Virus record (IMG/VR): IMGVR_UViG_3300026478_000749
Span: 22,001 to 86,000 of that record
Reading direction: 5' to 3' (one strand)
Source: a virus
DNA: 64,000 nucleotides
Under the pieces are notes generated by a model, which was not told where the DNA came from, ran no database searches, and was given only the letters and a program-made list of their open reading frames with translations. Positions 9,448-54,204 of this stretch are shown piece by piece. Numbering within the stretch: position 1 is the first letter of the stretch; every line of letters starts with the position of its first letter. The position numbers were made by a program, and so were the translations under genes.

Positions 9448-9767
9448 TGAATCAGTATTTCAATAGATATGATTACTTTTTAGAAGATGGGGAACATAAA
9501 ATTGTTCCAGGTATTGAAATACCTCAAAAGTCTACTGATAAGTTTTTTAATTATAAAAAGGGTAAAGATCGTTTAGATAAAATATCACAAGAATATTATG
9601 GAACCCCATTATTTAGCTGGTTAATTTTAATGGCTAACCCTAAATTAGGCTCTGTAGAGTTTGAGATACCAGATAACGCAATCGTTAGGGTACCTTTTCC
9701 TTTGATTAATTCTTTACAAGATTATAAAAAGGGCGTAGAATTGTATAGACTATATTATGGCGAATAA
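9447..9767 (+). CDS. LysM-like baseplate protein (T4 gp53 / P2 gpX-like)
   Basis: KKGKDRLDKISQEYYGTPLFSWLILMANP...IRVP-type motif; 106 aa; coupled to both neighbours. Confidence 0.8.
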   Translation: MNQYFNRYDYFLEDGEHKIVPGIEIPQKSTDKFFNYKKGKDRLDKISQEYYGTPLFSWLILMANPKLGSVEFEIPDNAIVRVPFPLINSLQDYKKGVELYRLYYGE

Positions 9768-12700
9768 TCAATTAAATCAGAATGAAAACATATTAGTATT
9801 AGTAGATCAACAAAACATAGTACATATTGATCCTAATACCGTTGTTTCTTCATCTGGAGATTTACAGCCAAGATTTGTAGATCACGAAAATTTAGTAATG
9901 TATGCTAATCTTGAAGCCGATTTGGTCCCAAGAAGTGTTTTATATTCTGAATCTCAAACAAATACTTTAACATCGGTTGCACAAGGTAAGTTTAACTTAC
10001 TTAGAAACTCAGACCCAAAAAATGAGTTTGAAAACAACTTTGATACAAACTGGACAGAAACATTTGTTTCAAATAACAATATAGCAACCAGTAGAACAAC
10101 TGGTGAAGGGGTACATTACGACCCAACCGCACAAACATTTGGTATTGATTCAATAAACATTACGGTTAAAGGGGCTAATAATATTCCTCAAGTCGGTATA
10201 AATTTTATTGATGTTAGAGGTAAAACATTATTTGACGCGCCAGACAACTCACCGTATAAAGCATTCTTTCACCAGCCATGGCCAATATTTTATTTAACAA
10301 TTAAAGGCTATTATGGTAAAGCAATAAGATACAGACTTCAATTGGTTGATTTTAAATCCAAATTCAATGGAAGTAATGGTAATTTTGAGATAGCAACAAA
10401 GTTTGTTGGCTCAAGCTATGCGTTTTTAAACGATATCCTTTTACAAAACATTATTAATGCACCGTTTATGTATATGGTTGAAAAACCAGAACCGTTTAGG
10501 GTAAATGAAAAAACAGGTTTTGTTGAAAAAAAGATATCTAAAACAACAAAAGGATATGCGATATTAAAATCTGTTTATAATGAATACATAGCAAAGGGTT
10601 ATATTGATAAAGATTTCCCAGTCAAAACTCTTAGAGATTTATTAATGACTGCAACTGCATTAGACACAATTATAGAGAAAGCTCTTTTTTCTGAAACAAT
10701 CGAACCCGATGTTTTAAGTGATGTAGCACAATATGATAAGTCTCTTGATAAATTTGAAAAAGCAATTATTTCTTGGGGTAATAGATACCTTTCAGCAGAC
10801 AATCCCCCTTATTCTCAAACTTTAAGATTTCCAGGGTCAAGTGTTGATACCACTGTAAATTATTATAGATTAAACAAACCAACAAACGATAGTAGTAAAG
10901 TTACAAGTGGTCCCCTTAATTTTGATATAGTTACAGGGACAACAACCAATAACTCATTAGCTTCTATTATTAAATTTTATACGGATGATCTTGAAAATAA
11001 TAAAGCATTTGGTAGCAAACCCAAAGCCAAATTACAAAATGGTATAGAGACGCAAACAATATCCTTAGACACCGTAAAAAATATTAAAGACTTTTATGAA
11101 ATAAAAGACAGTCAAATACTTGTGTCAAATGAAAAATTAGTAAACTATATAAAATCAATACAAGCTACATTCATTAAGAAAAGAGATGCGGTTGAAAATG
11201 AAGTTGAAAACAAAATGAATGTAGTGATTCAAGACAAAAAAGTTGGCTTTGGTTTCAAGCCTACTATTAGAAATATTTTTGCTGTTATTTTAGCAAACGC
11301 AGATACGTACATTAGATTAATGAAAGATGTACATAACAAATCAATACAAAAATCTGATTTAAGAAAAAAAGAATTATCTGGGTACACATCAAATGATAAA
11401 AATGAAATTGTTTATCCTTGGCCAGAAGTTAAAAAGAATGGTCGAGATGATAAACCAACATTTTTTTATCCCGCTGATCCAGAAATAATAGGATTAACTA
11501 AAGGTAATAATTACAATATCTGGCCAGAGGTTGAATTTGTTGAAACATATAATAGTGTTGCTGTTAAAAGAGTCGATACTGGAACTGGTAAAGAAGTAAG
11601 CCCTGGAGAAATTACTTTTGTATTTGATGATGATAAAGAAACAAGAGAAACATTTAATGTTAGTTCATTATTAAAAATTGCGGTGCCATCACCATACATA
11701 GATAAATCTTTATCAAATATTCTTTACGAAATTTACGAGAGAGCTCAATTAATCACATCTTTAGAGAGTTTTGACTATGGAAAAGGTTTAGACGAAATTG
11801 TTGAAAATGAGTTTAAAAATATTAGTGGGGCAACACAAGGTGATCTTGAAATAAGAGCATTGCTTAGCACAAGAATTAAAAGCATAACAGATTTAACAAA
11901 CAATCTTGAAAAATTCGCAGAAAAGGAAAGATTTCCATATTTCCAAGATGGTCTAACAACAGTAGAATATATTAGAGGGTTACTTGATAGTGATTTTAAA
12001 ATTGAACACTATACTAAGTCTGTTCAAGAAAGTGGCACCAAAAGTAATGAATTTGAGAAGTTACAGTCCGCTTTAGATTCGTTTGTTATTCCAGAATATA
12101 GAACAAAAGAATTTCCTTTTAATTCTGAACTATACGGCTCATATGTTGCAAGTAATTTATTGAGTAACACTTTTGGTGTTGGTTCATCTATCGGTTATAA
12201 AGGTATCTTTAAAGTTAATGAAAATTCTAATTTCATTAGTTCGCCAATTAATCCAAAAGCTTGGGTAAATTCAAGTTACCATAAGAATATGTTTTCTAGT
12301 CAAATAAAGTATGATAACTTTACAAGAAATCTATTAAACACACCATATTTTCATAAGCAGCTATATGATGACTTTATGAAAGGTGGTGTTGAAGGTAGAT
12401 ATGTTGGATCGGCTTATATTTTATTAAATTCTTTACCATATAAAGACCTAGATGATGTTTTAGATTTTGATGGTAAAAAGACATTCATGTTTGCTTTACT
12501 TAAAGAAGTTGGCGCAACACATTACATACCACACCATTTAATCTTAAGATGGGGGGCACAATACCATAGATATAAAAAATATCTTACTGATGGTATTGAT
12601 ATTATAAGTGGGATTACAATTCCTATTAATGCCGCAACATTTTTTGATAATGCAACTAACGCTTCATTTAACTTATCTGGAAACACAACACCAGATCAAA

Positions 12701-15573
12701 CTGGAATGACCAGCACAATAACTGGGGCGACTTATAATAGTAATAGCTACGTGGGATTATATCCATTTTACCATGGTATATATTCTCAGATTGTTAATGG
12801 GTATAGTTTTTATAATCCATCTGGTTTTACAAAAACAAGTGCTAACGCTTCCAATGCCGCAAACCAATATTCTGCTGCAGTAGCATCAGGAATGACCAAG
12901 TTTGTTATTTCAAAACCAACATCAACATCTGGTTATACCTTTACGTGCTTAGTTGATAATTCTATATTTTCTCCTGACGATGTTCGTTATACCGTTTTAC
13001 CTTCATTTAATGGAGGTCAAATAAATGACTTAATCAATAACTTTAACACACTAACACAAGATTCATTTAGACTTATTTATGACTCAAATAATCTAAATAA
13101 TAACCCATCATATAGCACAGCATATTTCCCAACGTATGGCGAAAGATTTGAAAATATTTCTGGCGAATACACATTAAACGGTAACAAAAAACGTGTAATG
13201 GATTTAATTGCGGTCTTTAGTCCTGAAATATTAGACGAGTTTGAAAAAATGTTTATTGATTTTGCGTCATTAGATCTTGACTTAGATACAGTAAAAAAAG
13301 AAATTGACTATAGTTCTTTCCAAAGCTTTTTAAAAGAAATTACCAGTATATCTAAAAATGGTATTAATTTTAATTCTAGTGGTTACGAAGTAAAGATAAA
13401 AGAAAACCAAACAAAAAAGTTAGAAGATTTAACCAATCAACTATTAGATAATAAAGCTTTGGATATTTTAACAATTGGTAATCCTAGACAAATTGATGAC
13501 TATGTAATTCGTGGATATATTGGAAGATCAAAGACATATCGTCTAAATGAATATAATGCTTCTCAGTTAACCCCACAAAACCAAAAATTAATTGAATTAT
13601 ATATTGGCCAAAATATCACAGGTGCAACATATAGTGGCATTAGTTCTAATCTATACCATCACTTTTTTCAAATAAGCGATATTGAGGTTACACCTGAAAA
13701 TATATATGCACATAGAGAGTTAGCAAGAATTTATGCTGGATGGGTTAAAGATCAAATTGTAAACACTCCAGGATTTTCGCCAAACTACACAAATTTTAAA
13801 ACCTATATAGAATCTAGCATATTCCGTCCACAGGTAAACAGATTAAATGATTTTTTAAATAATCTTACCAGAAAATTTTCAGCTTTAAAAGAAGAGCCGA
13901 TTGAAGGAAGAGTCACAATATATCATGGTTTTAACGAAACAAAAACAACATTACTAGACTTATATCAATTTTTTAAATCTTTTAATGATAAATGGATTTC
14001 TGGTAACGCTATTGGGCAAAGGAGCCTTATGGAAGAATTTTTATTTTTAGATAGAGCTAATAGAGACATTGGGAATGAGGCATACATAAGCCTCGAACGT
14101 TTGATTTCTTTAGCGGACGAAAAAAATATTAAAATAGATTTATATAGTGCAGTTTCATTGTTAATTCAAGGTACAAACTTTGACTTAAGACCGTTACCGG
14201 CATATGTGAATTTCTATGGAACTAATTCAACCAATAAGAAAAAAATACTACCTTCTAAAAGTATTGCTCGTACATTATTTGGAACTCACTTAGATGTGGA
14301 CTACCAAGAATCATCACCAAAAATTATACTTCAGTATATTAACAAGACGTCTCAATATCTAGATATGTCTAAAGTTAGTAAAGAATATAAATTTAAAAAT
14401 GATGGGTTTGATATTAAAAATCCAAACAACAATCCGTTATTGATTGAGCCCAAAATATTCATGGATACTGATTTATCAAAATCAAATAGAGTGGTTTCAT
14501 TTGAGATAAATTTTGGAGATCAAGCACAAAATATATTTAAAAATATTTCTCTTGACCAAAGCACATACAAGAATACAACAGAAAGCGCTTTAGCACAAGA
14601 AAGGCTAGCAAGGTCACAAGGTGGAGGAGGTAGTCATTCTGTTGATATAGGTTTATTTGATATTTACAAAACTGCTTCTTATCAATGTAGTGTTACCTGT
14701 ATGGGTAATGCTATGATACAGCCAACAATGTATTTTTATTTGGCTAATGTCCCAATGTTTACAGGGACTTATTTGGTTTTTGATGTGAGCCACGCAATCA
14801 AACAGGGGACGTTTGAAACAACATTTACAGGTGTTAGAATTTCTAATAGTTCACTACCGTCATTAGAAAGTACATTTATGTCTAGTTATAGACCTTTGTT
14901 TAGTAGAATACTTTCAGCAGCGGTTAAGAAAAAACAACAAACAGCTCAAGCTCAAACAACTGCTAAATCAATTACAACTGCAGATAATAAAACCTTTACA
15001 ATTGATCCCGGCGCCCCAGCAAGAGGAGAAGATTTAAATAATATCAATAAAGCGTCAGGTTTTATATTTGGCGATTTAATCCCATATAATGGTCAATTGA
15101 TAAATGGTAAACCAGAGCAGTATATTCAATCTATTAATTACAAGAACGAAAATTGGTTAAGAGCGAGGGTTTGCGTTCTTGGTTCAGGTAAGTATACACC
15201 AATTAAAAACGGATCTCCAGCAGAATTATCTTTAGTTAGTGGGTGGAAAGCATATCCTAATAAACTTGTTAAGTTAGCAGATATCGGTGCGTTGTATGAA
15301 TATTATTCTATAAGAGCAAATGTAACAAACGCAAATAAAGAAATTCTTTTTGATTGGGATACTGTTTTCTATGTTCCTAAGTCGGACACTACATATACAC
15401 TTGAAACAAACGTTAATCCAAATGACGGTAGATTTGATGGCCCAGTTCATAGCGGTCCAAGTATAGATGACCCCACATATGCTCAATATGGGGTTGCTCT
15501 TAGCCCTAGTTTAATGAGAAAATTAAGACTGGTTGAGGGAGATGTTTTATATTTAAGACACGTAAGGAAATAA
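9757..15573 (+). CDS. Giant baseplate hub protein (gp27/gpD-like C-terminal region)
   Basis: 1938 aa. Hub-like motif CSVTCMGNAMIQPTMYFYL..VPMFTGTYLVFDVSHAI..GTFETTFTGVR; follows the LysM-like gene. Confidence 0.6.
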   Translation: MANNQLNQNENILVLVDQQNIVHIDPNTVVSSSGDLQPRFVDHENLVMYANLEADLVPRSVLYSESQTNTLTSVAQGKFNLLRNSDPKNEFENNFDTNWTETFVSNNNIATSRTTGEGVHYDPTAQTFGIDSINITVKGANNIPQVGINFIDVRGKTLFDAPDNSPYKAFFHQPWPIFYLTIKGYYGKAIRYRLQLVDFKSKFNGSNGNFEIATKFVGSSYAFLNDILLQNIINAPFMYMVEKPEPFRVNEKTGFVEKKISKTTKGYAILKSVYNEYIAKGYIDKDFPVKTLRDLLMTATALDTIIEKALFSETIEPDVLSDVAQYDKSLDKFEKAIISWGNRYLSADNPPYSQTLRFPGSSVDTTVNYYRLNKPTNDSSKVTSGPLNFDIVTGTTTNNSLASIIKFYTDDLENNKAFGSKPKAKLQNGIETQTISLDTVKNIKDFYEIKDSQILVSNEKLVNYIKSIQATFIKKRDAVENEVENKMNVVIQDKKVGFGFKPTIRNIFAVILANADTYIRLMKDVHNKSIQKSDLRKKELSGYTSNDKNEIVYPWPEVKKNGRDDKPTFFYPADPEIIGLTKGNNYNIWPEVEFVETYNSVAVKRVDTGTGKEVSPGEITFVFDDDKETRETFNVSSLLKIAVPSPYIDKSLSNILYEIYERAQLITSLESFDYGKGLDEIVENEFKNISGATQGDLEIRALLSTRIKSITDLTNNLEKFAEKERFPYFQDGLTTVEYIRGLLDSDFKIEHYTKSVQESGTKSNEFEKLQSALDSFVIPEYRTKEFPFNSELYGSYVASNLLSNTFGVGSSIGYKGIFKVNENSNFISSPINPKAWVNSSYHKNMFSSQIKYDNFTRNLLNTPYFHKQLYDDFMKGGVEGRYVGSAYILLNSLPYKDLDDVLDFDGKKTFMFALLKEVGATHYIPHHLILRWGAQYHRYKKYLTDGIDIISGITIPINAATFFDNATNASFNLSGNTTPDQTGMTSTITGATYNSNSYVGLYPFYHGIYSQIVNGYSFYNPSGFTKTSANASNAANQYSAAVASGMTKFVISKPTSTSGYTFTCLVDNSIFSPDDVRYTVLPSFNGGQINDLINNFNTLTQDSFRLIYDSNNLNNNPSYSTAYFPTYGERFENISGEYTLNGNKKRVMDLIAVFSPEILDEFEKMFIDFASLDLDLDTVKKEIDYSSFQSFLKEITSISKNGINFNSSGYEVKIKENQTKKLEDLTNQLLDNKALDILTIGNPRQIDDYVIRGYIGRSKTYRLNEYNASQLTPQNQKLIELYIGQNITGATYSGISSNLYHHFFQISDIEVTPENIYAHRELARIYAGWVKDQIVNTPGFSPNYTNFKTYIESSIFRPQVNRLNDFLNNLTRKFSALKEEPIEGRVTIYHGFNETKTTLLDLYQFFKSFNDKWISGNAIGQRSLMEEFLFLDRANRDIGNEAYISLERLISLADEKNIKIDLYSAVSLLIQGTNFDLRPLPAYVNFYGTNSTNKKKILPSKSIARTLFGTHLDVDYQESSPKIILQYINKTSQYLDMSKVSKEYKFKNDGFDIKNPNNNPLLIEPKIFMDTDLSKSNRVVSFEINFGDQAQNIFKNISLDQSTYKNTTESALAQERLARSQGGGGSHSVDIGLFDIYKTASYQCSVTCMGNAMIQPTMYFYLANVPMFTGTYLVFDVSHAIKQGTFETTFTGVRISNSSLPSLESTFMSSYRPLFSRILSAAVKKKQQTAQAQTTAKSITTADNKTFTIDPGAPARGEDLNNINKASGFIFGDLIPYNGQLINGKPEQYIQSINYKNENWLRARVCVLGSGKYTPIKNGSPAELSLVSGWKAYPNKLVKLADIGALYEYYSIRANVTNANKEILFDWDTVFYVPKSDTTYTLETNVNPNDGRFDGPVHSGPSIDDPTYAQYGVALSPSLMRKLRLVEGDVLYLRHVRK

Positions 15574-15823: not shown

Positions 15824-15827
15824 AACT

Positions 15828-25310: not shown

Positions 25311-25316
25311 AATACT

Positions 25317-33810: not shown

Positions 33811-34644
33811 ATGAATATATTATATAATAGAGATAGTAAATCGTTGGTTTTTAATCCGGAAACAGATTTTAGAACAAATGCTGGATGGGAAAAAAATTTC
33901 CTAGATTACCAGGAAGAAGTTCTAAGGTCAATTATCAATCCGGTTGAAAATTATGAAACGGTTAGATATATTCATGAACCATATGATGTAACAATATCTG
34001 GGGTAACAACTAAGCAGTGTGATATTTGGTATCAATTTTATTTTTTAAACAACCAGAACCCTAGAGATTATGACAATGGCTTTGATTACGATTTGATCGG
34101 TATAAGCCCAAAAGAAAATGCCAAATTGTTAAAGCACACCGTTAATAGTTTCTTTAGGTTAGAATTTTATACAACAAGGGAAAGAGAAACACAAAAACTT
34201 GTTTTTGCTAAAAATTTATCAATACCTCTTGGCCAAAAAGTTTTTGACCTAAACTTAAGAGAAGACATTTTTGTGCCGGTATTTAATGGTAACAACTATA
34301 GAAATACTGAAAACATGTATTTGTTTTGGTTTGGTGACGATAGTGTGTTTAGTGGACTAACCTTTTATATGACAGCTAGATTCTTTAACGCTGAAGACGG
34401 TACTATTACAAGATTCTTAAATAAAGATTTAACTGTAAATAATTCTGGTTTAGTTAATGGTGAAAGAGTGGGAACAACCGCTAATCCTGTTAAGTTTTAT
34501 GAGATGAACTATAGCAATACCGTGGACGAGGTTAATGATGTTTATTATCAAGTAAGATTTAAAAGATCAGATCATAGCTACAAAATAACAAGAGGAATTA
34601 CAAGTGATTGTGATTTTGGTAGTGGCACCGCAACTAAATTATAA
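33811..34644 (+). CDS. Putative virion structural protein
   Basis: 277 aa within the baseplate operon. Confidence 0.55.
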   Translation: MNILYNRDSKSLVFNPETDFRTNAGWEKNFLDYQEEVLRSIINPVENYETVRYIHEPYDVTISGVTTKQCDIWYQFYFLNNQNPRDYDNGFDYDLIGISPKENAKLLKHTVNSFFRLEFYTTRERETQKLVFAKNLSIPLGQKVFDLNLREDIFVPVFNGNNYRNTENMYLFWFGDDSVFSGLTFYMTARFFNAEDGTITRFLNKDLTVNNSGLVNGERVGTTANPVKFYEMNYSNTVDEVNDVYYQVRFKRSDHSYKITRGITSDCDFGSGTATKL

Positions 34645-44025: not shown

Positions 44026-47000
44026 ATGGCAAAACAATTCACAGTAACAATATCTTCAGGGACAGCACCAGGGCCATACAACATTTATTATGATGTTGTT
44101 GATCCGTTGAATATTGCTACTGTAGTTTCAACGTCACTACCTGCAACAGGAATAACATATTCAGATTTAACAAACATAAACGGCGTATTGGTATCGGTAC
44201 CAGATAATGCGTATAAAATAATTTTATATAACACAGATCCATATTGTTTAATCGGTGACGATTTAATTTTACCAACACCAACACCAACAGCTACACCAAC
44301 AACAACACCAACAATTACTGCTACACCTACTATAACACCAACCCCAACCCCAACATTTACAGCAACGCCAACATCAACTTATACACCAAATTGTGAATTT
44401 ATTATTGATACCTCGGCGACTATTATAACGCCGACACCAACATCTACCGCGACACCAACCCCAACAAACTCAACACCAACGGATATTACATTAAGTAATG
44501 ATAGTATAAATGAAAATAGTGCTATAAACACTATTATCGGTACATTGAGCACAACAGATGCAAATCCGGGTGATACACATACGTACAGCATTCAACCAGG
44601 TGGTAATGGGTTTAAATTTAATATATCTGGTAGTAGTTTAAGATCATCTGAATCTTTTAATTATGAAGCAGCAACTTCATACACAGTAACAATTAGATCA
44701 ACAGATAGTGGCGGATTATATTTTGATAAAACATTTACAATTTATGTAAACAATGTAAATGAAGCACCATACGGCTTGAATTTCAGTGGTTCAATTCCTG
44801 AAAATTCAGCAACAGGTACAACTGTTGGTACAATAACGGCTTTGGATGTTGATTCTGGTGATACATTTACATATGCATTAACAGATACAATAAATTATCC
44901 AGATAATAATAGTTTTACATTAACAACAGCGGGGGTTTTAAAATCAGCTGCGGTTTTTGACTATGAAACAAAAAATTCATATTCAATTAAAGTAAGAACA
45001 ACAGATGCTGGCGGATTAACATATGATGGTGTATTAACAGTACCAATTACAAACGTTAATGAGGCACCTTACGGTTTAACAATAAGCAGTAATACAATTG
45101 CAGAAAACTCTGCAACAGGAACAACTATTGGAACTCTATCTGGTTTAGATTATGATGCTGGATCGACATTTACTTACGCATTTACAGATACCATAAATTA
45201 TCCTGATAATAGTAGCTTTAGCATAAGTGGATCAACACTTAGATCTGCTGTTATCTTTAATTATGAAACCAAATCTTCATATTCAATTAAAATTAGGGTT
45301 ACTGACCAAGGTGGGTTAACGTATGATGGAACATTAACAATCAATGTAACAAATGTTAACGAAACACCAACAAATATTTCATTAAGCGCGTCTTCAATTG
45401 CTGAAAATGTTGCTACTGGTACAACAATTGGTACGTTATCAACAACAGATCCAGATGCTGGTGATACATTTACATATCAGCTATATGATACTGCAACCTA
45501 TCCTGATAACAGTAGCTTTAGCATAAGTGGATCAACACTTAGATCTGCTGCAGTTTTTAATTATGAAAGCAAAAGTTCGTATAGCATTAGGGTTAGATCA
45601 ACAGATGCTGGTGGATTAACATTTGATAAAACATTAACGATTACAATTACGAATGTAAACGAAACACCAACGGGCATTTCATTATCATCAAACACAATTG
45701 CAGAAAATTCTGCGACCGGAACAACAATTGGTACGTTATCAACAACAGATCCAGATGCAGGGGATACGTTTACTTATACATTAACAGATACAGTAAATTA
45801 TCCCGATAATAGCAGCTTTACCATTGTTGGTTCATCACTAAGATCTGCAGCAATATTTAATTTTGAATCTAAATCTTCTTATTCAATCAAAGTTAGATCA
45901 ACAGATGCGGGCGGATTAACAGTAGATCAAACTTTTGCAATTTCTGTTACAAATGTTAATGAAGCCCCAACAAATATAAGTTTAAGTTCTTCATCAATAT
46001 CAGAAAACGTACCAACCGGAACAACTGTTGGTACATTTAGTTCTACAGACCCAGACGCTGGTGATACATTCACATATGCATTAGTAGATACATCAACATA
46101 TCCAGATAATAGTAGTTTCTCAATTTCAGGAAGCACATTAAGAAGTGCGGCCATTTTTGATTTTGAAACACAATCAACATATTCAATAAGAGTTAGAGCA
46201 ACAGATGCAGGTGGACTAACCTATGACAAAACAATAACAATATCTATTACAAATGTTACAATATCTGTTGGAGCATCTGTAACAACAAATGTGACGTGTA
46301 ATGGCGGATCAAACGGTGTTATAACAGTATCGGGTGTCACTGGCGGAACTGCAAGTTATACATATTCTAAAGATGGGTCAACTTATCAGTCGTCAAATGT
46401 ATTTAGCGGCTTAACTGCTAATTCATATATTTTATATGCCAAAGATTCTTATGGTGAAGTTGGTAGTAGTGCTGTAGTAACAGTAACTCAACCAGCAGTA
46501 GTCTCACTTAGTGCATCTGGAACAAACCCAACGTGTGTTGGTAGTACCGATGGTTCAATTACAGTATCATCTGCATCTGGCGGGTCTGGAAGTGGTTATA
46601 CCTATTCTAAAGATGGTTCAAGCTATCAGACTGGGACAACATTTAGCAATTTAGCTAATGGAACATATACAATTTATGCAAAAGATAGTAATAATTGTAC
46701 TGGATCAACTTCAGTAACATTAAGTAGAACACAAGTTACTGCAACAATATCACAAACAAATGTAACTTGTAATGGAGGTAACGATGGGTCAATAGTTGTT
46801 TCTGATTTAGCTGGTGGTCAAGGCGGACCATATTCAACAAAATTAAATGCCGGAGGAACTTACCAAGTAATTACAACCTCAAGAACATATTCATCACTAA
46901 CAGCAGGTTCATACACAATTTATGTGAAAGATAGTGCTGGTTGTGAAAATACGTATGCAGTAACAATAACTCAACCATCTCAAGTAACAGTTAGTTCATC

Positions 47001-48963
47001 TTCATTGGTGTATCCAACTTGTTGGAATAGTACTAACGGTGGATTTACATTAAGTGCTTCTGGGGGTGTAGGAACATATCAATATTCTAAAGATAACGGG
47101 GCAACATGGCAAAGTAGTGGTGTTTTCACTAACTTAAGTTCTGGTGTTTATACTGTTAAATCAAAAGATAATAGTGGATGCCAATCTACTGGTTTAACGG
47201 TTGACATAACTAAGTCCGCACCAACACCGGTGGTCAACCAAACAAACGTTTCTTGTAATGGAGGAACTGGATCATTAAATGTTGTTGGCGCAAGTGGTGG
47301 TAATAATGGGCCGTATACTGTTTCATTAAATGATGTAACATACTATACGGTACAAAAATTATTTGACTCATTATCACCTGGGGTATATACATTATATATT
47401 AAAGATGCAACAGGATGTAAGGCGTCTTATACATATACAATCACACAACCATCTGCATTAACAATAAGTGTTAGCTCTGCAACAAATCCAACTTGTTGGA
47501 ATGGTACAAATGGTGAAATAGTTGTTTCGGCATCTGGTGGAACAGGAACAAAAACTTATTCAAAAGACGGTACAAACTACCAAGCAAGCGCAACGTTTAG
47601 CAATTTAGGTACAGGTACATATACATTGTATGTAAAAGATGCTAATGATTGTACCGCAACAGTATCACAAACCTTATCTAAATCAGCTCCTAATGCGCAG
47701 ATTCAAGTGACTAATCCATCTTGTTTTGGTGGTACAGGTTCAATAGTTGTTTCTGCAGGTACAGGAGGAAATGGCGGCACGTATCAATCAAAATTAAATG
47801 CCGGAGGAACTTATGGAAATCTCCCACAAACATATTCGAGTTTAGGTGACGGATCGTACACAATTTTTGTTAAAGATGGTTCAGGATGTGAGCAAACATA
47901 TTCTACTTCAATAAGTGTTCCAACTCAAGTGACAATCAGTACAAATGCAACATATCCAACATGTTATAATAGCTCTAATGGTGCTGTTACAGTTGGGGCT
48001 GGTGGAGGAACTGGCTCGTACGAATACTCTAAAGATGGTGGATCAACATGGCAATTAAGTAATTCATTTACTAGTCTCTTTGCTACAACATATACCTTTA
48101 GAGTAAAAGATAGCAACGGATGTTTATCATCAACACAATCTGTTAACTTAAGTAAAGCGGCGCCTTATGCTAATATTTCAGTTTCTAATGTGACTTGTAA
48201 CGGAGGATCAAACGGCTCAATTACATTAACTAACCCAACAAGTGGAAATAGTGGCCAAATTACCGCATCATTAACAGGTGGTGTATCTGATTACTATTCA
48301 TTTACACTTGGTACATTAACATTTAGTAATAAAACTGCGGGTACATATACTGTATACATAAAAGATTCTAGTGGTTGTGTTGCTACATATGAAGCTATCA
48401 TAACTCAACCTACAGCACAATCAGCTTCAATTAGTAGTCCTGTAAACCCACCATGCGCTGATCCAAATGGAGGTAGCTTGACAATTTCATCTGCAGGTGG
48501 TGTGTGGCCTAAGACATATAGATTATATGAAGACGAATCTTCGCCATATACAACTTGTGGCGGCACATTAAGAGCGACATATACTAACGTCACTTCAGAT
48601 AATACAAGTAGAAGTGTTACAGGTCTAACTTCTGGCGGATTCTGCTTAGAAGTAACAGATGCAAACGGATGTGTAGTTACAAGCGGAATAACAGTTTTAG
48701 TTGACGAAGCGGTAAATTATACATATCAAGTTATCAGATGTAGTGACAACGCATATTTAACAATGACTTCACCAGATGTATTAGTATCAGCATTCTTAGG
48801 TGGAACTAAAGTGGTGAAAATCAATAATGTATGTTACCAAATCGACTACTCAACTGGTACGCAGTGTTCAACTAGTTCAATTCATTTAGCTGACGGAAAT
48901 AACGCAGTAATCTATAACAATTGTACTAACTGTAGTAGTGGTAGCGGAGGTCAACAAGTATAA
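44026..48963 (+). CDS. Giant adhesin-like virion protein with 6 cadherin repeats and 10 SprB-like repeats
   Basis: Cadherin motifs I.ENS..GT.IGTLSTTDPD, FNYE, TDAGG, NVNE(A/T)P; SprB-type repeats TNVTCNGG.NG.I.V...GG...Y.YS.DG...L..G.YT.YVKD..GC. Confidence 0.85.
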   Translation: MAKQFTVTISSGTAPGPYNIYYDVVDPLNIATVVSTSLPATGITYSDLTNINGVLVSVPDNAYKIILYNTDPYCLIGDDLILPTPTPTATPTTTPTITATPTITPTPTPTFTATPTSTYTPNCEFIIDTSATIITPTPTSTATPTPTNSTPTDITLSNDSINENSAINTIIGTLSTTDANPGDTHTYSIQPGGNGFKFNISGSSLRSSESFNYEAATSYTVTIRSTDSGGLYFDKTFTIYVNNVNEAPYGLNFSGSIPENSATGTTVGTITALDVDSGDTFTYALTDTINYPDNNSFTLTTAGVLKSAAVFDYETKNSYSIKVRTTDAGGLTYDGVLTVPITNVNEAPYGLTISSNTIAENSATGTTIGTLSGLDYDAGSTFTYAFTDTINYPDNSSFSISGSTLRSAVIFNYETKSSYSIKIRVTDQGGLTYDGTLTINVTNVNETPTNISLSASSIAENVATGTTIGTLSTTDPDAGDTFTYQLYDTATYPDNSSFSISGSTLRSAAVFNYESKSSYSIRVRSTDAGGLTFDKTLTITITNVNETPTGISLSSNTIAENSATGTTIGTLSTTDPDAGDTFTYTLTDTVNYPDNSSFTIVGSSLRSAAIFNFESKSSYSIKVRSTDAGGLTVDQTFAISVTNVNEAPTNISLSSSSISENVPTGTTVGTFSSTDPDAGDTFTYALVDTSTYPDNSSFSISGSTLRSAAIFDFETQSTYSIRVRATDAGGLTYDKTITISITNVTISVGASVTTNVTCNGGSNGVITVSGVTGGTASYTYSKDGSTYQSSNVFSGLTANSYILYAKDSYGEVGSSAVVTVTQPAVVSLSASGTNPTCVGSTDGSITVSSASGGSGSGYTYSKDGSSYQTGTTFSNLANGTYTIYAKDSNNCTGSTSVTLSRTQVTATISQTNVTCNGGNDGSIVVSDLAGGQGGPYSTKLNAGGTYQVITTSRTYSSLTAGSYTIYVKDSAGCENTYAVTITQPSQVTVSSSSLVYPTCWNSTNGGFTLSASGGVGTYQYSKDNGATWQSSGVFTNLSSGVYTVKSKDNSGCQSTGLTVDITKSAPTPVVNQTNVSCNGGTGSLNVVGASGGNNGPYTVSLNDVTYYTVQKLFDSLSPGVYTLYIKDATGCKASYTYTITQPSALTISVSSATNPTCWNGTNGEIVVSASGGTGTKTYSKDGTNYQASATFSNLGTGTYTLYVKDANDCTATVSQTLSKSAPNAQIQVTNPSCFGGTGSIVVSAGTGGNGGTYQSKLNAGGTYGNLPQTYSSLGDGSYTIFVKDGSGCEQTYSTSISVPTQVTISTNATYPTCYNSSNGAVTVGAGGGTGSYEYSKDGGSTWQLSNSFTSLFATTYTFRVKDSNGCLSSTQSVNLSKAAPYANISVSNVTCNGGSNGSITLTNPTSGNSGQITASLTGGVSDYYSFTLGTLTFSNKTAGTYTVYIKDSSGCVATYEAIITQPTAQSASISSPVNPPCADPNGGSLTISSAGGVWPKTYRLYEDESSPYTTCGGTLRATYTNVTSDNTSRSVTGLTSGGFCLEVTDANGCVVTSGITVLVDEAVNYTYQVIRCSDNAYLTMTSPDVLVSAFLGGTKVVKINNVCYQIDYSTGTQCSTSSIHLADGNNAVIYNNCTNCSSGSGGQQV
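44464..46257 (+). repeat. Six tandem cadherin-coding repeats with about 300 bp period
   Basis: 45199-45250 vs 45499-45550 are near-identical; 45421-45458 vs 45721-45758 are identical. Confidence 0.9.
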
Positions 48964-49018: not shown

Positions 49019-49585
49019 ATGATAGTTACTTTCACATTACAAAATCAATATTCTGGCGCAACATATGTAGCTGGGCCTTTTAATATTTCGGGAACAACTG
49101 ACGCTAACGTAACAACAGAATTAGCGACGGGAATAACCAAAGAACAGTTATTAACCGGACATACAATTACAGGTATTACTGATTCAACAACCGGTGGAAC
49201 AATTGCTAGTACTGGGGTTTGCACAAATACTCAACAATGGGTAGCTTTCCCATCACAATCAACACCAACACCAACAGTAACCCCATCAGCGTATGGATAT
49301 TGTTACAGTCTGACTTATTCAACAATACCAAATGATCTATATGTTAGATATAGAGACATGGAAGGTGTGGTTACAACGACTCTAATCCAAAATTTACAAA
49401 GTATGGATAATGGAAATGGAACATATACCGCCTACATATGCGTTATGCAAGGAGGTTCATACCAATCTCCGGTTTGTGTTCAATACAGTATGGAAGTTAC
49501 TTGCGACCCATACTTATGGTCAACAGATAACTGTATTTGTACCACAGTATCTGGTAGTGAATGTTTTGTACCATGTGCCAACTAA
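49019..49585 (+). CDS. Small Cys-rich virion/fibre accessory protein
   Basis: N-terminal domain related to that of 44026 (GPFNI, ATGIT), a TP linker and a Cys-rich C-terminal domain; preceded by TATTTATA. Confidence 0.6.
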   Translation: MIVTFTLQNQYSGATYVAGPFNISGTTDANVTTELATGITKEQLLTGHTITGITDSTTGGTIASTGVCTNTQQWVAFPSQSTPTPTVTPSAYGYCYSLTYSTIPNDLYVRYRDMEGVVTTTLIQNLQSMDNGNGTYTAYICVMQGGSYQSPVCVQYSMEVTCDPYLWSTDNCICTTVSGSECFVPCAN

Positions 49586-51979: not shown

Positions 51980-52002
51980 ATAAAAACATATACTTTTAAC
52001 AT

Positions 52003-54204
52003 ATGAGCTTTTTAGATAGTAGTAATTCAGAATTCTTATCAGCAAGAATAACCAGAAAGGGTAGAAAATCTATCGCTGAAGGTAATTTTGTTATAAAATA
52101 TTTTCAGGTCGGTGATTCTGAGTTTGATTATACTTTCAGTGGATTTACTGGAGCAGGCACAACACCAAGACAAAGAGTATTGGCGCCTATGGATGGAGAT
52201 CAGCATGTAAAGTATCCCTATCTATTAACAGGTACAGATACAATTAACTATGGTAACGCTGTTGAACAATCAATAACAACCACATTAAAAAATGCAATGG
52301 GTCCAGCTGGATTTGTTACAAACTATAGACCATATAACGCTAGTCCTTGTACTGGCACAACAGTTGAATGCGTATCAAAAGAAATTTCAACGACAACAAT
52401 TAGTACTACAGTCATTGATGGGGTACCAGTACCAGTTACAGGTACAACTGAATTATCTTTAGGCGTTACAGGTAAAACTGCACAAGATTTTAGAGAATGT
52501 GAGTATATTACATTGGTATTTGATAATGAATTTAAACAGTCTAACAATGTAATAAGCGGTGGAACTCAAAGCTTAGTCTATAAAATTACAGATATTATCA
52601 TTAATACCGGAACGACATTGATAAATGGCGTCCAAACAATTACCGGAGATACTAAATTAGTTTTAGATAGAAGAACGCCAAATTTAGCCGGAGCATCGCC
52701 ATCAAGTGTTACTAGAGTTGTTTGCAACAGGTGTAGCTTAGAGTATCCAGAATCTCCAGCAGGGTCAAGTGTCTGTTCACCATTACCAGTTGACAATCTA
52801 GCGCAACACGATCCATGGACACTAGAAACAATATGGACACAAAAGCCAGCTGGTTTAGACGCGTCTGATGAGGCATTAAGTGGTTATACTGGAACTCAAT
52901 TTGCATCTCTAAAAGAGTATTTGGGATATACATCTACAGGCCAAACATTTACAAATTTAACTGGCGGAACAATTTCAAATCCAACATCATATACAAATTC
53001 ATTCGGTGAAAAAATTGATGTTAAACCAGAAGATCAAAGATGTATTGCTGTTATTCACTATTCAGAATTAGGAGACATTGTTAATGATCCAGAAAGATTT
53101 TTTAAATATGATGATTACATTGGAAGCGAAACGGATGAAGAATATTATACATACGATCCAGATGATTTAGTTTCTGACGTTAATCATTTTGAAGTTTATA
53201 TTCCTTTTATTTTTTATCATAGAAATACAGGAACAACAATCGGCGCAAAATTTGTGATGGATACAACTGATTATTATGTTTCATCAGCAAAAAATACTAA
53301 ACCAAACACAAACAATCTTAAGTTTAGATTTTTATTAGACGAACAAGGTATTCGTGTTGGTAAAGTATTTGTCGATAAAAAAATTATTGTATTTGATGAC
53401 CAAGAATTGGTGGCTGTATTAGAATATAAAACAAATAGAAAATATACATTACCAGCCCCTAGATTTAACACAGTACCATTAGATTTACCAACATTCTATG
53501 ATTTAGATCCAGTAGTTCTTACAGGAGAAACTGCTTGGGTTACATACATGTTCCAATACACTGGCGACACCTATAAAAACGGTATGCACTGTAACTATTA
53601 TGGTAAAATTACAGGTACAACAAATTCAAATATAGGATTTAGATTTGAAACAGGAGATTTTAAATACTTAAGCAATTCATCATATTTTACTGGATTCACA
53701 GCAAATAAATTTTATGCTTTGGTTCAGGTTGTACAAACAGGAAATCAACCGTCCTCAGACGCTTGGAAAATAATTGATTTAACATCTCAAATATCTGGCC
53801 ATACTGTTGGTAACTTAATATCCAAAACAAACATGTGCGGATATCAATTTGTGATAACAGGAGATATGTACGATTCAGCATCAACATATGATATTGAAAC
53901 TTATCTTGGACCATTACCAAATATTGATCAACCAACATTACCACAATTTGGGGATTCACAACCCTTTCCAGGTGCTGTTCAATTAACAAGAGCAACTGAC
54001 GTAGAGGTTTTAAATTTCATGGTTAATTTACCCGGAACACAATTCTTAACAAGCCAGAACCCAACATATGTTACTGGACAACCAAAAAGAATAACAGAGG
54101 TAGCATTATTAAATGAAAATAAAGAACCTTTAGTTACAGCTAAATTAGCTAAACCGTTAGAAAGAACAGGTAATCAGGTATTTTCAGTTAGAATTGATTT
54201 CTAA
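52003..54204 (+). CDS. Tail fibre-attachment / baseplate structural protein
   Basis: N-terminal ITRKGRKSIA...IKYFQVGD and C-terminal ITEVALLNENKEPLVTAKL resemble phage tail-collar/fibre base domains; 16 [ST]GxT motifs. Confidence 0.55.
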   Translation: MSFLDSSNSEFLSARITRKGRKSIAEGNFVIKYFQVGDSEFDYTFSGFTGAGTTPRQRVLAPMDGDQHVKYPYLLTGTDTINYGNAVEQSITTTLKNAMGPAGFVTNYRPYNASPCTGTTVECVSKEISTTTISTTVIDGVPVPVTGTTELSLGVTGKTAQDFRECEYITLVFDNEFKQSNNVISGGTQSLVYKITDIIINTGTTLINGVQTITGDTKLVLDRRTPNLAGASPSSVTRVVCNRCSLEYPESPAGSSVCSPLPVDNLAQHDPWTLETIWTQKPAGLDASDEALSGYTGTQFASLKEYLGYTSTGQTFTNLTGGTISNPTSYTNSFGEKIDVKPEDQRCIAVIHYSELGDIVNDPERFFKYDDYIGSETDEEYYTYDPDDLVSDVNHFEVYIPFIFYHRNTGTTIGAKFVMDTTDYYVSSAKNTKPNTNNLKFRFLLDEQGIRVGKVFVDKKIIVFDDQELVAVLEYKTNRKYTLPAPRFNTVPLDLPTFYDLDPVVLTGETAWVTYMFQYTGDTYKNGMHCNYYGKITGTTNSNIGFRFETGDFKYLSNSSYFTGFTANKFYALVQVVQTGNQPSSDAWKIIDLTSQISGHTVGNLISKTNMCGYQFVITGDMYDSASTYDIETYLGPLPNIDQPTLPQFGDSQPFPGAVQLTRATDVEVLNFMVNLPGTQFLTSQNPTYVTGQPKRITEVALLNENKEPLVTAKLAKPLERTGNQVFSVRIDF

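What the first reader, a model, noticed from the sequence alone, without database searches (positions are those of the whole stretch)
9757..54204. Virion-wide [S/T]-G-x-T motif: candidate sequon for an undescribed virion modification system
Seen (hand counts): 16 copies in the 733-aa 52003 protein, 11 in the 588-aa 32043 protein, 14 in 36854, 11 in 9757 (7 clustered in one short region), 8 in 27730, and more in 34647, 33811 and the sheath (FSGTT). The motif is usually preceded by a hydrophobic residue (ISGAT, LTGST, FSGVT). I found none in NrdA, NrdB, the Rad50-like ATPase, the tape measure, the tube or the gp6-like wedge. A rough composition-based expectation is about 1-2 per 600-700 aa. The motif is scattered through unrelated folds, so it is not a tandem repeat. 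Inference: it is a recognition signal for post-translational modification, such as O-glycosylation by a phage enzyme, or a docking site that decorates the outer virion surface.
Basis: partly seen in the sequence, partly recalled or inferred. Interest (0 to 1): 0.82.

Follow-up and report, generated by a model that had tools for sequence, protein, structure and literature searches.

The report
Ser/Thr-Gly-x-Thr tag on phage tails
The outer tail, baseplate, fibre and sheath proteins of this uncultured jumbo phage and its relatives carry the four-residue word Ser/Thr-Gly-x-Thr about six times more often than chance, and it behaves like a recognition tag, possibly for sugar attachment, rather than a folding requirement, although no chemistry has been shown.

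Summary
Observation confirmed. All five hand counts are exact. Ten motif-rich ORFs, leaving out the cadherin/SprB protein, hold 88 sites against 12.8-16.0 expected, even when residues are shuffled only within 10-40-residue blocks. The reversed word and all permutations are at chance. Only S/T at position 0 and only T at +3 are enriched. Codons vary, so the signal is at the protein level.

It is not virion-wide. Tube, hub and gp25/gp6-like wedge have none. In a complete 335-kb relative, 8 orthologous tail/sheath proteins carry it, and the other 343 ORFs have 102 sites against 102.2 expected. T4, phi92, a Flavobacterium phage and the nearest GenBank relative show only 1.1-1.9x.

In the 52003 family, motif-free clades nest among motif-rich ones. 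One such clade kept 2/20 motif glycines but 60/72 other conserved glycines. The fold therefore does not need the motif, which implies a lineage-level reader.

Three relatives share at least four glycosyltransferases (GTs), and most relatives examined carry sugar-nucleotide genes.

Best reading (about 0.4): an O-glycosylation sequon on exposed beta-turns. This is unproven. The scan noted the same motif before on other genomes (e1-6025513, e1-5790905).

The parts
3..797 (+). C-terminal 264 aa of the tail sheath. The full protein is 947 aa and starts upstream of the window, at genome 19954. It has 1 motif in the window part (FSGTT) and 8 in the whole protein against 1.5 expected.
   Evidence: PHROG tail sheath phrog_23, E 2.5e-65. 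Counts. Seven of the 8 sites lie in residues 97-666, which do not align with the T4 gp18 core.
9757..15573 (+). 1938-aa structural protein of unknown family, next to hub and wedge genes. 11 motifs against 1.3 expected, 7 of them in residues 951-1058.
   Evidence: No Pfam, PHROG or PDB match. Orthologues in G002, G006 and G008 are also enriched: 9, 10 and 9 sites.
27730..32043 (+). 1437-aa protein just after the gp6-like wedge gene (the gp7 position). 8 motifs against 1.6 expected.
   Evidence: Only 1 of the 8 sites is shared with the G002 orthologue, which has 4, so sites turn over.
32043..33809 (+). 588-aa baseplate-periphery protein. 11 motifs against 0.8 expected.
   Evidence: 9 of 11 sites are kept in G002. 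The 120 nearest homologues listed (55-96% identity) carry 4-17 each: 1174 sites against 83.8 expected.
33811..34644 (+). 277-aa protein. 2 motifs against 0.17 expected.
   Evidence: p 0.011. Orthologues in G006 and G008 have 7 and 5.
34647..35909 (+). 420-aa protein. 5 motifs against 0.95 expected.
   Evidence: The G002 orthologue has 10, of which 3 are shared. Weak CBM_5_12 match below cut-off.
36854..41815 (+). 1653-aa fibre or baseplate protein. 14 motifs against 2.2 expected.
   Evidence: 12 of 14 sites are kept in G002, which has 18. No PDB relative.
44026..48963 (+). 1645-aa adhesin-like protein with 6 cadherin stretches and 6 SprB repeats. 20 motifs against 8.6 expected, mostly inside the tandem domains.
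   Evidence: Pfam Cadherin E 3.3e-52 and SprB E 7.4e-38. Contexts.
49019..49585 (+). 188-aa protein with 6 motifs in its first 61 residues (0.76 expected).
   Evidence: The G002 orthologue has 5.
52003..54204 (+). 733-aa protein, the densest case: 16 motifs against 1.3 expected. It belongs to a large metagenome-only family (597 representatives at E <= 0.001).
1092..1580 (+). Tail tube, an interior protein. Negative control with 0 motifs.
   Evidence: PHROG tail tube E 5.2e-28. Count.
25837..27669 (+). gp6-like baseplate wedge, an inner baseplate protein. Negative control with 0 motifs.
   Evidence: PHROG baseplate wedge E 8e-19. Count.

Best explanation
Hydrophobic-[S/T]-G-x-T is a short linear motif kept by selection in about 8-10 outward-facing proteins: the sheath insert domains, a neck or tail protein, baseplate-periphery proteins and fibres. 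It occurs in a clade of ~290-335-kb uncultured jumbo myophages, and a cadherin/SprB-repeat protein hints at Bacteroidota hosts.

The motif is not needed by the folds that carry it. It is read by something that a lineage either has or lacks.

The most likely reader is one of the clade's own soluble glycosyltransferases. It would O-glycosylate a hydroxyl of the motif (Thr +3 and/or Ser/Thr 0) on exposed beta-turns in the cytoplasm, before or during tail assembly. This would give the tail apparatus a glycan coat.

Shown here: the specificity of the motif, its restriction to exterior tail proteins, its lineage specificity, its concerted and specific loss, and the presence of GT and sugar-nucleotide genes.

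For: (1) Specificity.
- In 15 structural ORFs (10,721 aa), among all aG.b words only SG.T (51 against 7.8) and TG.T (53 against 11.2) stand out.
- [ST]G.b is enriched only for b = T (104 against 19.1); S is 1.2x and V is 0.9x.
- aG.T is enriched only for a = S or T; N is 0.66x and D is 0.99x.
- The reverse word T.G[ST] gives 17 against 14.7, and seven other permutations are at 0.7-1.3x.
- Position -1 is I/L/Y/F/V in 60% of 999 sites. E and R are almost excluded there (0.05x and 0.04x). P is excluded at x (0.05x), and K at +5 (0.12x).

(2) Protein-level signal. All synonymous codons occur at every fixed position.

(3) Restriction to exterior proteins.
- In the complete relative G006 (353 ORFs), 10 ORFs reach p < 0.01. 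Eight of them are orthologues of the window's set. The remaining 343 ORFs hold 102 sites against 102.2 expected.
- Tube, hub, gp25-like and gp6-like proteins have 0.

(4) Lineage-specific strength. The ratio is 6.4x in 90 enriched non-redundant proteins of the clade (1001 against 157). In the structural regions examined it is 1.07-1.51x in T4, 1.80x in Flavobacterium phage immuto, 1.86x in phi92 and 1.49x in LR756508. None of these has a strongly enriched ORF.

(5) The fold does not need the motif.
- Among 101 full-length members (600 aa or more) of the best 150 representatives of the 52003 family, at least 9 have 0 sites (60 of the 101 were printed).
- On the tree of the 71 aligned members, the motif-free ones form clades nested among members with 4-17 sites.
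- In the clade P0008/P0016/P0018/P0019, motif glycines are kept 2/20 against 60/72 for other equally conserved glycines. S/T at position 0 is kept 2/16 against 109/188. T at +3 is kept 6/16 against 34/52.

(6) Turnover by point substitution in conserved context, with density maintained. Examples are YSGLT/YSGLQ, PTGVT/PDGVT and CAGTA/CTGTT. The 34647 protein has 5 sites and its orthologue 10, with 3 shared.

(7) Candidate enzymes.
- A 408-aa GT-B on the same contig (phrog_7162, E 1.3e-43) is present in 4 of 4 near-complete relatives.
- GT2 matches number 2-7 per genome in 5 of 5 relatives.
- Four GTs are shared by G006, G008 and G002.
- A glycan island in G006 holds GT2, GT1/4, GT92-like and Anp1-like genes, epimerase/dehydratases, an RmlC-like gene and sugar O-methyltransferase-like genes.

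(8) Precedent. A soluble GT-A enzyme, C. difficile SgtA, puts GlcNAc on Thr of G-P-T repeats (PMC7157674, passages read).

(9) Indirect signs of turn or loop location. 11 of 16 sites in the 52003 protein lie within 3 residues of indel-prone alignment positions, against a background of 41% (p 0.023).
Against: - There are no chemical data of any kind.
- No GT is linked to the motif. phi92 carries a homologue of the GT-B (27% identity) without any enriched ORF.
- Phage GTs and sugar genes have other known uses, namely DNA glycosylation and host-envelope modification. The moraphage paper discusses them that way (PMC12619734).
- No TATTTAT late-type promoter word lies directly upstream of any of the 12 GT-type ORFs of G006. 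In the window's genome only the gene upstream of the GT-B has it.
- A hydrophobic residue at -1, Pro exclusion and many position-conserved sites (9/11 in 32043, 12/14 in 36854) also fit a structural beta-hairpin motif. Other phages show a weak 1.1-1.9x baseline.
- No GT41-type protein glycosyltransferase was found (0 of 5 genomes).
- The genomes of the motif-free lineages could not be reached, so the key co-occurrence test was not done.
Confidence: 0.4

Rival explanations
1. A structural idiom. Hydrophobic-[S/T]-G-x-T is a favoured beta-hairpin turn: the last core residue of one strand, an S/T-Gly turn, then Thr early in the next strand. It would stabilise exposed beta-rich tail domains. This lineage happens to use it heavily and nothing reads it.
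For: - Hydrophobic residues at -1 (60-65%) and to a lesser degree at +4, with Pro excluded at x.
- Many sites are position-conserved down to 48% identity (9/11 and 12/14).
- In the low-confidence model, sites sit at strand starts or hairpin turns.
- A weak general excess of 1.1-1.9x occurs in unrelated phages and 1.37x in the clade's other proteins.
Against: - The physics of turns is universal, yet the excess is 6x only in this clade and only in about 8-10 proteins.
- A turn should tolerate N/D at position 0 and V/I/S at +3, but these are at or below chance ([ND]G.T 0.89x and [ST]G.[VI] 0.99x).
- Homologues of the same fold have zero sites, and they lost motif glycines (2/20 kept) while keeping other conserved glycines (60/72).
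- Sites flip between motif and non-motif states by single substitutions in conserved context.
Confidence: 0.27
2. A non-covalent recognition tag. The motif would be bound by a phage assembly chaperone or a decoration protein, or it would contribute many weak contacts to a host surface polymer, so that a lineage with a different partner or host can drop it.
For: The same lineage-level all-or-none pattern and the same restriction to exterior tail proteins. The motif-rich set is the host-contacting apparatus, and it includes a cadherin/SprB adhesin-like protein.
Against: Stable binding to a 4-residue word in dozens of unrelated contexts is unusual, whereas enzymes commonly read such words. No candidate partner gene was identified. 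The sheath does not contact the host, and neither it nor the capsid protein is known (recalled) to need fibre chaperones, yet the sheath is enriched and the capsid protein mildly so.
Confidence: 0.15
3. A sequon for a covalent modification other than glycosylation, for example phosphorylation, nucleotidylation, or dehydration or cross-linking of Ser/Thr.
For: The strict requirement for hydroxyl residues at two positions and the lineage-level loss fit any enzyme-read tag.
Against: No Hanks-type kinase in 0 of 5 relatives' records, four of them at least 92% complete. No other candidate enzyme family was found or searched for. Glycan genes are the abundant candidates.
Confidence: 0.1
4. An artefact of composition, cryptic repeats or post-hoc motif picking.
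For: The proteins are S/T/G-rich. 44026 really is built of tandem domains. The motif was chosen by eye.
Against: - Block shuffles that keep local composition give 88 against 12.8-16.0.
- An unbiased scan of all ab.c words ranks SG.T second and TG.T fifth, behind only the PT-linker word PT.T.
- Flanking residues are not conserved and spacing has no period (median 29).
- Pfam and PHROGs find no domains in 8 of the 10 motif-rich proteins tested.
- The excess recurs in 80 of 80 further family loci.
Confidence: 0.02

Closest known systems
Virion O-glycosylation of mycobacteriophages by phage-encoded glycosyltransferases (Freeman et al. 2023, Cell Host Microbe). I know this only from the citing passage in PMC12619734 and from recall; the paper itself is not held.
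   Same: A tailed phage would sugar-coat its own particle proteins with its own cytoplasmic enzymes.
   Different: According to the citing passage, the glycans there sit on the C-termini of the capsid and tail-tube subunits. Here the sites are internal and scattered over about 8-10 tail, baseplate, fibre and sheath proteins. The tube has none. A defined four-residue word is implied. No chemistry exists here.
Clostridioides difficile SgtA acting on BclA3 (PMC7157674; passages read)
   Same: A soluble GT-A enzyme adds an O-linked sugar to Thr two residues after Gly (G-x-T) on a surface fibre protein. GT2-family genes are shared among the relatives compared.
   Different: SgtA's substrate is a collagen-like G-P-T triplet array. 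Here Pro at x is almost excluded (0.05x), sites are isolated with irregular spacing, and an S/T before Gly and a hydrophobic residue at -1 are also required.
General protein O-glycosylation of Bacteroidota, sequon D-[S/T]-[A/I/L/V/M/T] (recalled: Fletcher et al. 2009, Coyne et al. 2013; seen in no call)
   Same: A short sequon-directed O-glycosylation in the presumed host phylum.
   Different: That system is periplasmic (recalled). Asp at -1 is disfavoured here (0.27x), and D[ST][AILVMT] is itself depleted in the enriched proteins (0.61x).
AAH/TibC autotransporter heptosyltransferases acting on AIDA-I, TibA and Ag43 (recalled; pointed to by earlier notes; paper not read)
   Same: Cytoplasmic enzymes that hyper-glycosylate many Ser/Thr on short turns between beta-strands of a surface adhesin.
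   Different: GT9-family matches occur in only 2 of 5 relatives. No beta-helix passenger repeats were detected. The acceptor word differs.
Glycosylated fibrils of giant viruses made by virus-encoded sugar pathways (PMC9614988 and PMC10117803; search listing and abstracts only)
   Same: A large virus genome encodes its own nucleotide-sugar enzymes and many GTs, with outer fibres as the proposed target.
   Different: Those are eukaryotic viruses with a different particle architecture. I know of no four-residue sequon there (recalled; only abstracts were seen).

Membership tests
Bacteroidota general O-glycosylation sequon D-[S/T]-[AILVMT] | Asp directly before the acceptor Ser/Thr, and an aliphatic residue or Thr after it | tested here: not met
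   D at -1 is 0.27x background in 999 sites. Position +1 is invariably Gly. D[ST][AILVMT] is 216 against 353.1 (0.61x) in the 90 enriched proteins.
Bacteroidota general O-glycosylation sequon D-[S/T]-[AILVMT] | Substrates are exported and glycosylated in the periplasm | not testable with these tools
   Virion proteins of tailed phages assemble in the cytoplasm (established knowledge). No signal-peptide analysis was run.
N-linked sequon N-x-[S/T] | Asn two residues before Ser/Thr, in excess | tested here: not met
   N[^P][ST] is 937 against 1075.9 (0.87x) in the enriched proteins. The residue two before Thr is invariably Gly.
Mycobacteriophage-type virion glycosylation | Phage glycosyltransferase genes present, near the structural genes | tested here: inconclusive
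   The GT-B lies at genome 2638-3864, 3.5 kb from the first motif-rich late gene (7425), but on the other strand among PhoH and dUTPase genes. Four GTs are shared by three relatives. No late-promoter word lies directly upstream of them.
Mycobacteriophage-type virion glycosylation | Glycans on the C-termini of the capsid and tail-tube subunits | tested here: not met
   The tube has 0 motifs. The capsid protein of G002 has 3 against 0.55. Sites are internal.
Mycobacteriophage-type virion glycosylation | Sugar demonstrated chemically on virion proteins | not testable with these tools
   Uncultured phage; no proteomic data were examined.
SgtA/BclA-type glycosylation of collagen-like G-x-T repeats | Thr acceptor two residues after Gly | tested here: met
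   G.T is part of the motif, and +3 is Thr-specific: [ST]G.T is 5.45x and [ST]G.S is 1.2x. This matches the form only; acceptor use is not shown.
SgtA/BclA-type glycosylation of collagen-like G-x-T repeats | Tandem G-P-T triplets (collagen-like region) | tested here: not met
   P at x is 0.05x. [ST]GPT is 3 against 9.5. The median gap between sites is 29 residues, with no 3-residue array.
Tandem structural repeats (cadherin, SprB, Ig-like, beta-helix, triple beta-spiral) | Recognisable repeated domain, or a regular period that carries the motif | tested here: not met
   Pfam and PHROGs find repeats only in 44026. Eight of the 10 motif-rich proteins have no family match, and 34647 has only a weak CBM_5_12 match below cut-off. 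Spacing is broad. Flanks are not conserved.
AAH/TibC (GT9) adhesin heptosylation | A GT9-family enzyme conserved with the substrates | tested here: not met
   PF01075 matches in 2 of 5 relatives only (G006, G007). The motif is equally present in G008 and G002, which have no match.

The most novel reading that the evidence does not exclude
A written address for sugar-coating a contractile tail. Soluble phage glycosyltransferases would read hydrophobic-[S/T]-G-x-T on exposed beta-turns and O-glycosylate about 100 sites per genome, spread over roughly ten exterior proteins (sheath inserts, baseplate periphery, fibres). Lineages that lose the enzyme would shed all their sites together. As far as my searches show, this would be the first short sequon for protein glycosylation in tailed phages, and a glycan-shielded tail apparatus in a widespread clade of jumbo phages known only from metagenomes.
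Probability: 0.35. Interest if true: 0.85.

Novelty: new variant of a known kind. Interest (0 to 1): 0.72.

Why it matters
If the motif is a glycosylation sequon, virion glycosylation would extend from mycobacteriophages to a large clade of uncultured jumbo phages. At least 552 IMG/VR stretches encode the 52003 family. The hypothesis is directly testable, because the sites are predictable from sequence and there is a short list of four shared candidate enzymes. It would also offer an explanation for why large phages carry so many glycosyltransferase and sugar genes.

A glycan coat on the receptor-binding apparatus would bear on host recognition, particle stability and resistance to proteases or to host and predator recognition.

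If the motif is not a sequon, the concerted, motif-specific loss in nested clades still shows that a four-residue word on tail proteins is read by some lineage-level factor. I found no description of this in the papers searched.

Tried and rejected
- **Structure mapping.** AlphaFold2 of the 52003 protein with 11 sequences gave mean pLDDT 39.8, too poor to map sites. A 100-sequence alignment (A3) was built for a second run, but that run was not accepted.
- **PDB sequence searches.** The 36854 protein, the 9757 protein and the 52003 profile found nothing.
- **ESM Atlas.** The 32043 protein gave only sub-threshold viral hits.
- **DNA-level explanation rejected.** Codons at the fixed positions are diverse.
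- **Composition and local-composition artefact rejected**.
- **Known sequons rejected.** D[ST][AILVMT] and N-x-[ST] are at or below chance.
- **Kinase and GT41 candidates.** 0 of 5 genomes each.
- **GT-motif co-occurrence outside the clade.** phi92 has a 27%-identical GT-B homologue but no enriched ORF. That enzyme family alone therefore does not predict the motif.
- **Concerted variation between the 52003 homologue and its neighbours.** Across 78 loci there was no positive correlation (Spearman -0.35). All 80 retrieved loci were motif-rich, so this test had no motif-free class and is uninformative.
- **Late expression of the GTs.** The TATTTAT word lies upstream of many structural genes but not directly upstream of any of the 12 GT-type ORFs in G006.
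- **Sheath domain test.** 7 of 8 sites fall in the 60% of the protein outside the T4-like core. That is about p 0.1 by my own binomial arithmetic on the coordinates, so it is only suggestive.
- **Genome context of motif-free homologues.** It was not found in IMG/VR, in JGI metagenome contigs or in GenBank phages. The window's own 52003 protein also has no GenBank phage match.
- **Papers.** Freeman et al. 2023 is not held. Supplementary files were not requested. Supplements of PMC12619734 might show whether this clade is the 'moraphage' lineage, which I did not test.

Full report
**What the window is.** The 64-kb window is bases 22001-86000 of an 86-kb IMG/VR-type virus record, with GC of about 0.30-0.37. 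It is a T4-like myophage fragment. PHROGs identify:
- a tail tube (1092-1580), a baseplate hub (1746-2486), a gp25-like wedge (25293-25835) and a gp6-like wedge (25837-27669);
- NrdB, NrdA, a DnaB-like helicase, a UvsX-like recombinase, SSB, primase, SbcCD-like nuclease, a RuvC-like resolvase and a prohead protease;
- the tail sheath, which starts upstream of the window.

The best GenBank phage matches of the gp6-like protein are only 25-30% identical: LR756508, Flavobacterium phage immuto and Microcystis phage Mel-JY01. Relatives in IMG/VR reach 288-335 kb at 92-100% estimated completeness, so this is a piece of a jumbo phage. One tail protein (44026-48963) carries cadherin domains and SprB repeats. 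From recall, SprB repeats are typical of Bacteroidota gliding adhesins, which hints at the host.

**The observation.** Every hand count is exact: 16, 11, 14, 11 and 8 for the proteins starting at 52003, 32043, 36854, 9757 and 27730.
- Seven of the eleven sites in the 9757 protein lie in residues 951-1058.
- 0 of 1000 whole-protein shuffles reach the observed count for seven proteins.
- The proteins have S/T/G-rich patches, so I also shuffled within 10-, 20- and 40-residue blocks. Ten ORFs without the cadherin protein hold 88 sites against 16.0, 14.1 and 12.8, and the largest shuffled total was 31.
- One correction: ORF 4636-9447, presumably the 'tape measure', has 2 sites (1.34 expected).

**Specificity.**
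- In the tail set without 44026, [ST]G.T is 83 against 14.3.
- The reverse word T.G[ST] is 17 against 14.7. [ST].GT, G[ST].T, T[ST].G, [ST]T.G, G.T[ST] and G.[ST]T lie between 0.67x and 1.26x. [ST]G.S is 1.07x, [ST]A.T is 0.78x and [^ST]G.T is 0.73x.
- A full table of aG.b words shows enrichment only for a = S (6.5x) or T (4.7x), and only for b = T (5.45x; every other b is 0-2.4x). An unbiased scan of all ab.c words ranks SG.T second and TG.T fifth, behind the PT-linker word PT.T.
- The pairwise excesses of [ST]G and G.T are therefore consequences of the full word.
- With 999 sites from 90 non-redundant enriched proteins of the clade: position -1 is I/L/Y/F/V in 60% of sites (background 32%), and E and R are nearly absent there (0.05x, 0.04x). 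Pro is nearly absent at x (0.05x). Position +4 favours I/F/G/A. K and R are avoided at +5 (0.12x, 0.26x).
- [ILVFY][ST]G.T is 582 against 46.7, or 12.5x.
- All synonymous codons occur at the fixed positions, so the signal is in the protein and not in the DNA.

**Where it is and is not.**
- Upstream of the window, the full sheath (947 aa) has 8 sites against 1.5. A 489-aa late protein has 7 against 0.46. A 659-aa fibre-like protein has 6 against 2.4.
- Tube, hub, gp25-like and gp6-like wedge proteins and all replication enzymes in the window have 0 or 1.
- In the 251-kb relative G002, only 9 of 235 ORFs reach p < 0.01. Seven are orthologues of proteins enriched in the window's contig. The other two are the DNA polymerase (3 against 0.32, probably chance) and the orthologue of the 49019 protein. 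The rest hold 100 sites against 81.1.
- In the complete 335,630-bp relative G006, 10 of 353 ORFs reach p < 0.01. Eight are orthologues of the sheath, the 489-aa protein and the 9757, 32043, 33811, 34647, 36854 and 52003 proteins. The other 343 ORFs hold 102 sites against 102.2 expected.
- G008 gives the same set.
- The capsid protein is only mildly enriched: 3 against 0.55 in G002. A 576-aa G008 ORF of matching size, which I did not confirm as the capsid protein, has 4 against 0.55.
- The motif therefore marks a conserved set of about 8-10 exterior tail proteins, not the whole virion.
- In the sheath, 7 of 8 sites lie in residues 97-666. This segment does not align with the conserved T4 gp18 core (residues 8-96 and 667-947 do). 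From recall (Aksyuk et al. 2009), it corresponds to the exposed domains.

**Lineage specificity.** I applied the same count to the regions examined in other phages:
- T4: 11 against 10.3 and 13 against 8.6. gp7, gp10, gp12 and gp34 are at chance; gp37 has 6 against 2.1.
- Flavobacterium phage immuto: 27 against 15.0.
- phi92: 25 against 13.5.
- The baseplate region of LR756508: 7 against 4.7.

None of these has a strongly enriched ORF. There is thus a weak general excess of 1.1-1.9x, probably structural, and a 6x excess in this clade only. Within the clade it is universal:
- 15 of 15 close loci and all 80 loci of a wider scan encode a 52003 homologue with 3-21 sites, against about 1 expected.
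- The 120 nearest homologues of the 32043 protein have 4-17 each.

**Is it needed by the fold?** The 52003 family has 597 representatives at E <= 0.001.
- The best 150 show 5.3-9.2x enrichment in every block of 25, with the reverse word at 1.1-1.6x.
- Among the 101 full-length members, at least nine have no site at all: P0008, P0016, P0018, P0019, P0039, P0043, P0054, P0069 and P0081. Members at the same 34-45% identity to the window protein have 12-17.
- On a maximum-likelihood tree of 71 members, the motif-free ones form clades nested within motif-rich ones: (P0016, P0018, P0007 with 2 sites, P0019, P0008), (P0081, P0043), (P0054, P0039), and P0069 alone.
- These lineages are Asn/Lys-rich, so I asked whether they had simply lost Gly, Ser and Thr. 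They had not. I took alignment columns where at least 60% of 14 motif-rich sisters share the residue. The four free sequences keep 60/72 non-motif glycines but 2/20 motif glycines. They keep 109/188 other S/T but 2/16 at position 0. They keep 34/52 other Thr but 6/16 at +3.
- Between the window's genome and G002, 50 of 100 sites are retained, against 34% for control triplets. Several proteins keep the density while moving the sites: 7 and 4 with 1 shared, 5 and 10 with 3 shared, and 8 and 4 with 1 shared. This happens through single substitutions in well-aligned context, for example YSGLT/YSGLQ, ASGWT/EKGWT, PTGVT/PDGVT and CAGTA/CTGTT.

A site can thus be in the motif state or not without disturbing the protein. 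The motif state is nonetheless strongly favoured, and a whole lineage can give up all its sites together. This is the behaviour of a tag read in trans, not of a folding requirement.

**Candidate readers.**
- The contig itself encodes a 408-aa GT-B glycosyltransferase at genome 2638-3864, which is outside the window. It matches phrog_7162 at E 1.3e-43. Pfam Glyco_transf_4 scores 27.5 bits, just under the cut-off, and there is a weak C-terminal Glyco_trans_1_4 match.
- It is present in 3 of 5 fragmentary relatives and in 4 of 4 near-complete relatives at 62-77% identity, plus one at 95%.
- GT2 matches number 2-7 per genome in 5 of 5 relatives. NAD-dependent sugar epimerase/dehydratase matches number 0-7, in 4 of 5 relatives.
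- G006 has two relevant gene groups. An island at about 297-306 kb holds three GT2, a GT92-like, two GT1/GT4-like and an Anp1-like enzyme, an epimerase and two methyltransferases, one of them rhamnosyl-O-methyltransferase-like. A second group at 262-271 kb holds an RmlC-like epimerase, epimerase/dehydratases fused to a 2OG-oxygenase, and TPP enzymes.
- Four GTs (the GT-B, GT2_a, GT2_c and GT2_d) are shared by G006, G008 and G002.
- No GT41 and no Hanks kinase were found. GT9 occurs in 2 of 5.
- A paper on 'moraphages' describes large aquatic phages with predicted Bacteroidota hosts and reports four core glycosyltransferase groups. It cites DNA glucosylation, serotype conversion and mycobacteriophage virion glycosylation as possible roles (PMC12619734, abstract and passages). 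I did not test whether this clade is that lineage.
- A precedent for a soluble GT-A that puts GlcNAc on Thr in G-x-T is C. difficile SgtA on the G-P-T repeats of BclA3 (PMC7157674, passages).

**Weighing.** The evidence shows a real, specific, lineage-level, exterior-protein tag. It does not show what reads the tag. Points against the glycosylation reading:
- There are no chemical data.
- No enzyme is linked to the motif. phi92 has a distant GT-B homologue without the motif.
- Phage GTs have other known uses.
- No late-promoter word lies at the GT genes of G006.
- The hydrophobic -1 residue, the Pro exclusion and many conserved positions also fit a beta-hairpin.
- The only structural hints are weak. 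In the pLDDT-39.8 model the sites fall at strand starts or hairpin turns. 11 of 16 sites are near indel-prone alignment positions, against a background of 41% (p 0.023).

I put O-glycosylation by a phage GT at about 0.4, a purely structural idiom at about 0.27, a non-covalent tag at about 0.15, another modification at about 0.1, and artefact at about 0.02.

**Novelty.** Four literature searches returned no paper that describes a short sequon on tailed-phage particle proteins or this motif. Earlier notes of this scan report the same or a near-identical motif on other genomes (e1-6025513, e1-5790905, e1-5648756, e1-5633868). I treated these as leads, and my own tests agree with them.

**Limits.**
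- The genomes of the motif-free lineages could not be reached. As a result, the decisive test, whether a particular GT disappears together with the motif, remains undone.

Noticed in passing
L019:2638-3864 (-), genome coordinates; upstream of the window: A 408-aa GT-B glycosyltransferase (phrog_7162) lies among PhoH, dUTPase and unknown genes. It is shared at 62-95% identity by every relative in which it was found, including 4 of 4 near-complete ones. Distant homologues occur in phi92-like, Klebsiella and Campylobacter phages and in 735-kb uncultured phages.
   Followed up: yes
G006:C1:262000-271000 and 297000-306000 (loci L126, L127): Two gene groups for glycan synthesis in a complete 335-kb relative. 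They hold several GT2, GT1/4, GT92-like and Anp1-like transferases, an RmlC-like enzyme, SDR epimerase/dehydratases (one fused to a 2OG-Fe(II) oxygenase), split TPP enzymes and sugar O-methyltransferase-like genes.
   Followed up: partly
G006:C1:226505-245424 and 294170-296197: Five paralogous fibre-like proteins with long collagen-like Gly-[S/T]-[S/N] triplet arrays. They account for the large count of the reversed word T.G[ST] in that genome. Their N-terminal regions, with their I/V-S-G-S words, recall by eye the 659-aa protein at genome 8908-10887; I did not compare them.
   Followed up: no
window 44026-48963: A phage tail-module protein built of 6 cadherin stretches and 6 SprB repeats. From recall, SprB repeats are typical of Bacteroidota gliding adhesins, so this may be a host-like adhesin module and a hint at the host phylum.
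   Followed up: partly
window 42435-44006 and neighbours: Long Thr-Pro linker runs: TPT. occurs 83 times against 8.5 expected across 15 structural ORFs. This is the only gapped word more enriched than SG.T.
   Followed up: no
motif sites throughout 9757-54204: Ser at position 0 uses AGT or AGC in 31 of 53 cases, against 33% genome-wide, and TCA in only 5 of 53, against 33%. This is an unexplained codon or codon-pair bias at the motif.
   Followed up: no
upstream of many late genes, e.g. window 27716, 35915, 49000, 50864; genome 3917-4474 (-): A TATTTAT(A) word lies 10-25 nt before the start codon of many structural genes and is mostly absent before replication genes. This fits another first-stage note about a late-promoter motif.
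   Followed up: partly
L019:5517-6170 (-), genome coordinates: A 217-aa protein made of about four copies of a ~45-residue repeat, each containing a GD[DE]KGKGE-like word. No family match was found.
   Followed up: no
G002:C1:79581-81314 and G008:C1:276500-278230: The T4-type major capsid protein of G002 (Pfam Gp23) has 3 motifs against 0.55 expected. A 576-aa G008 ORF of matching size, not confirmed as the capsid protein, has 4 against 0.55. This is a mild excess, far below that of the tail proteins.
   Followed up: partly
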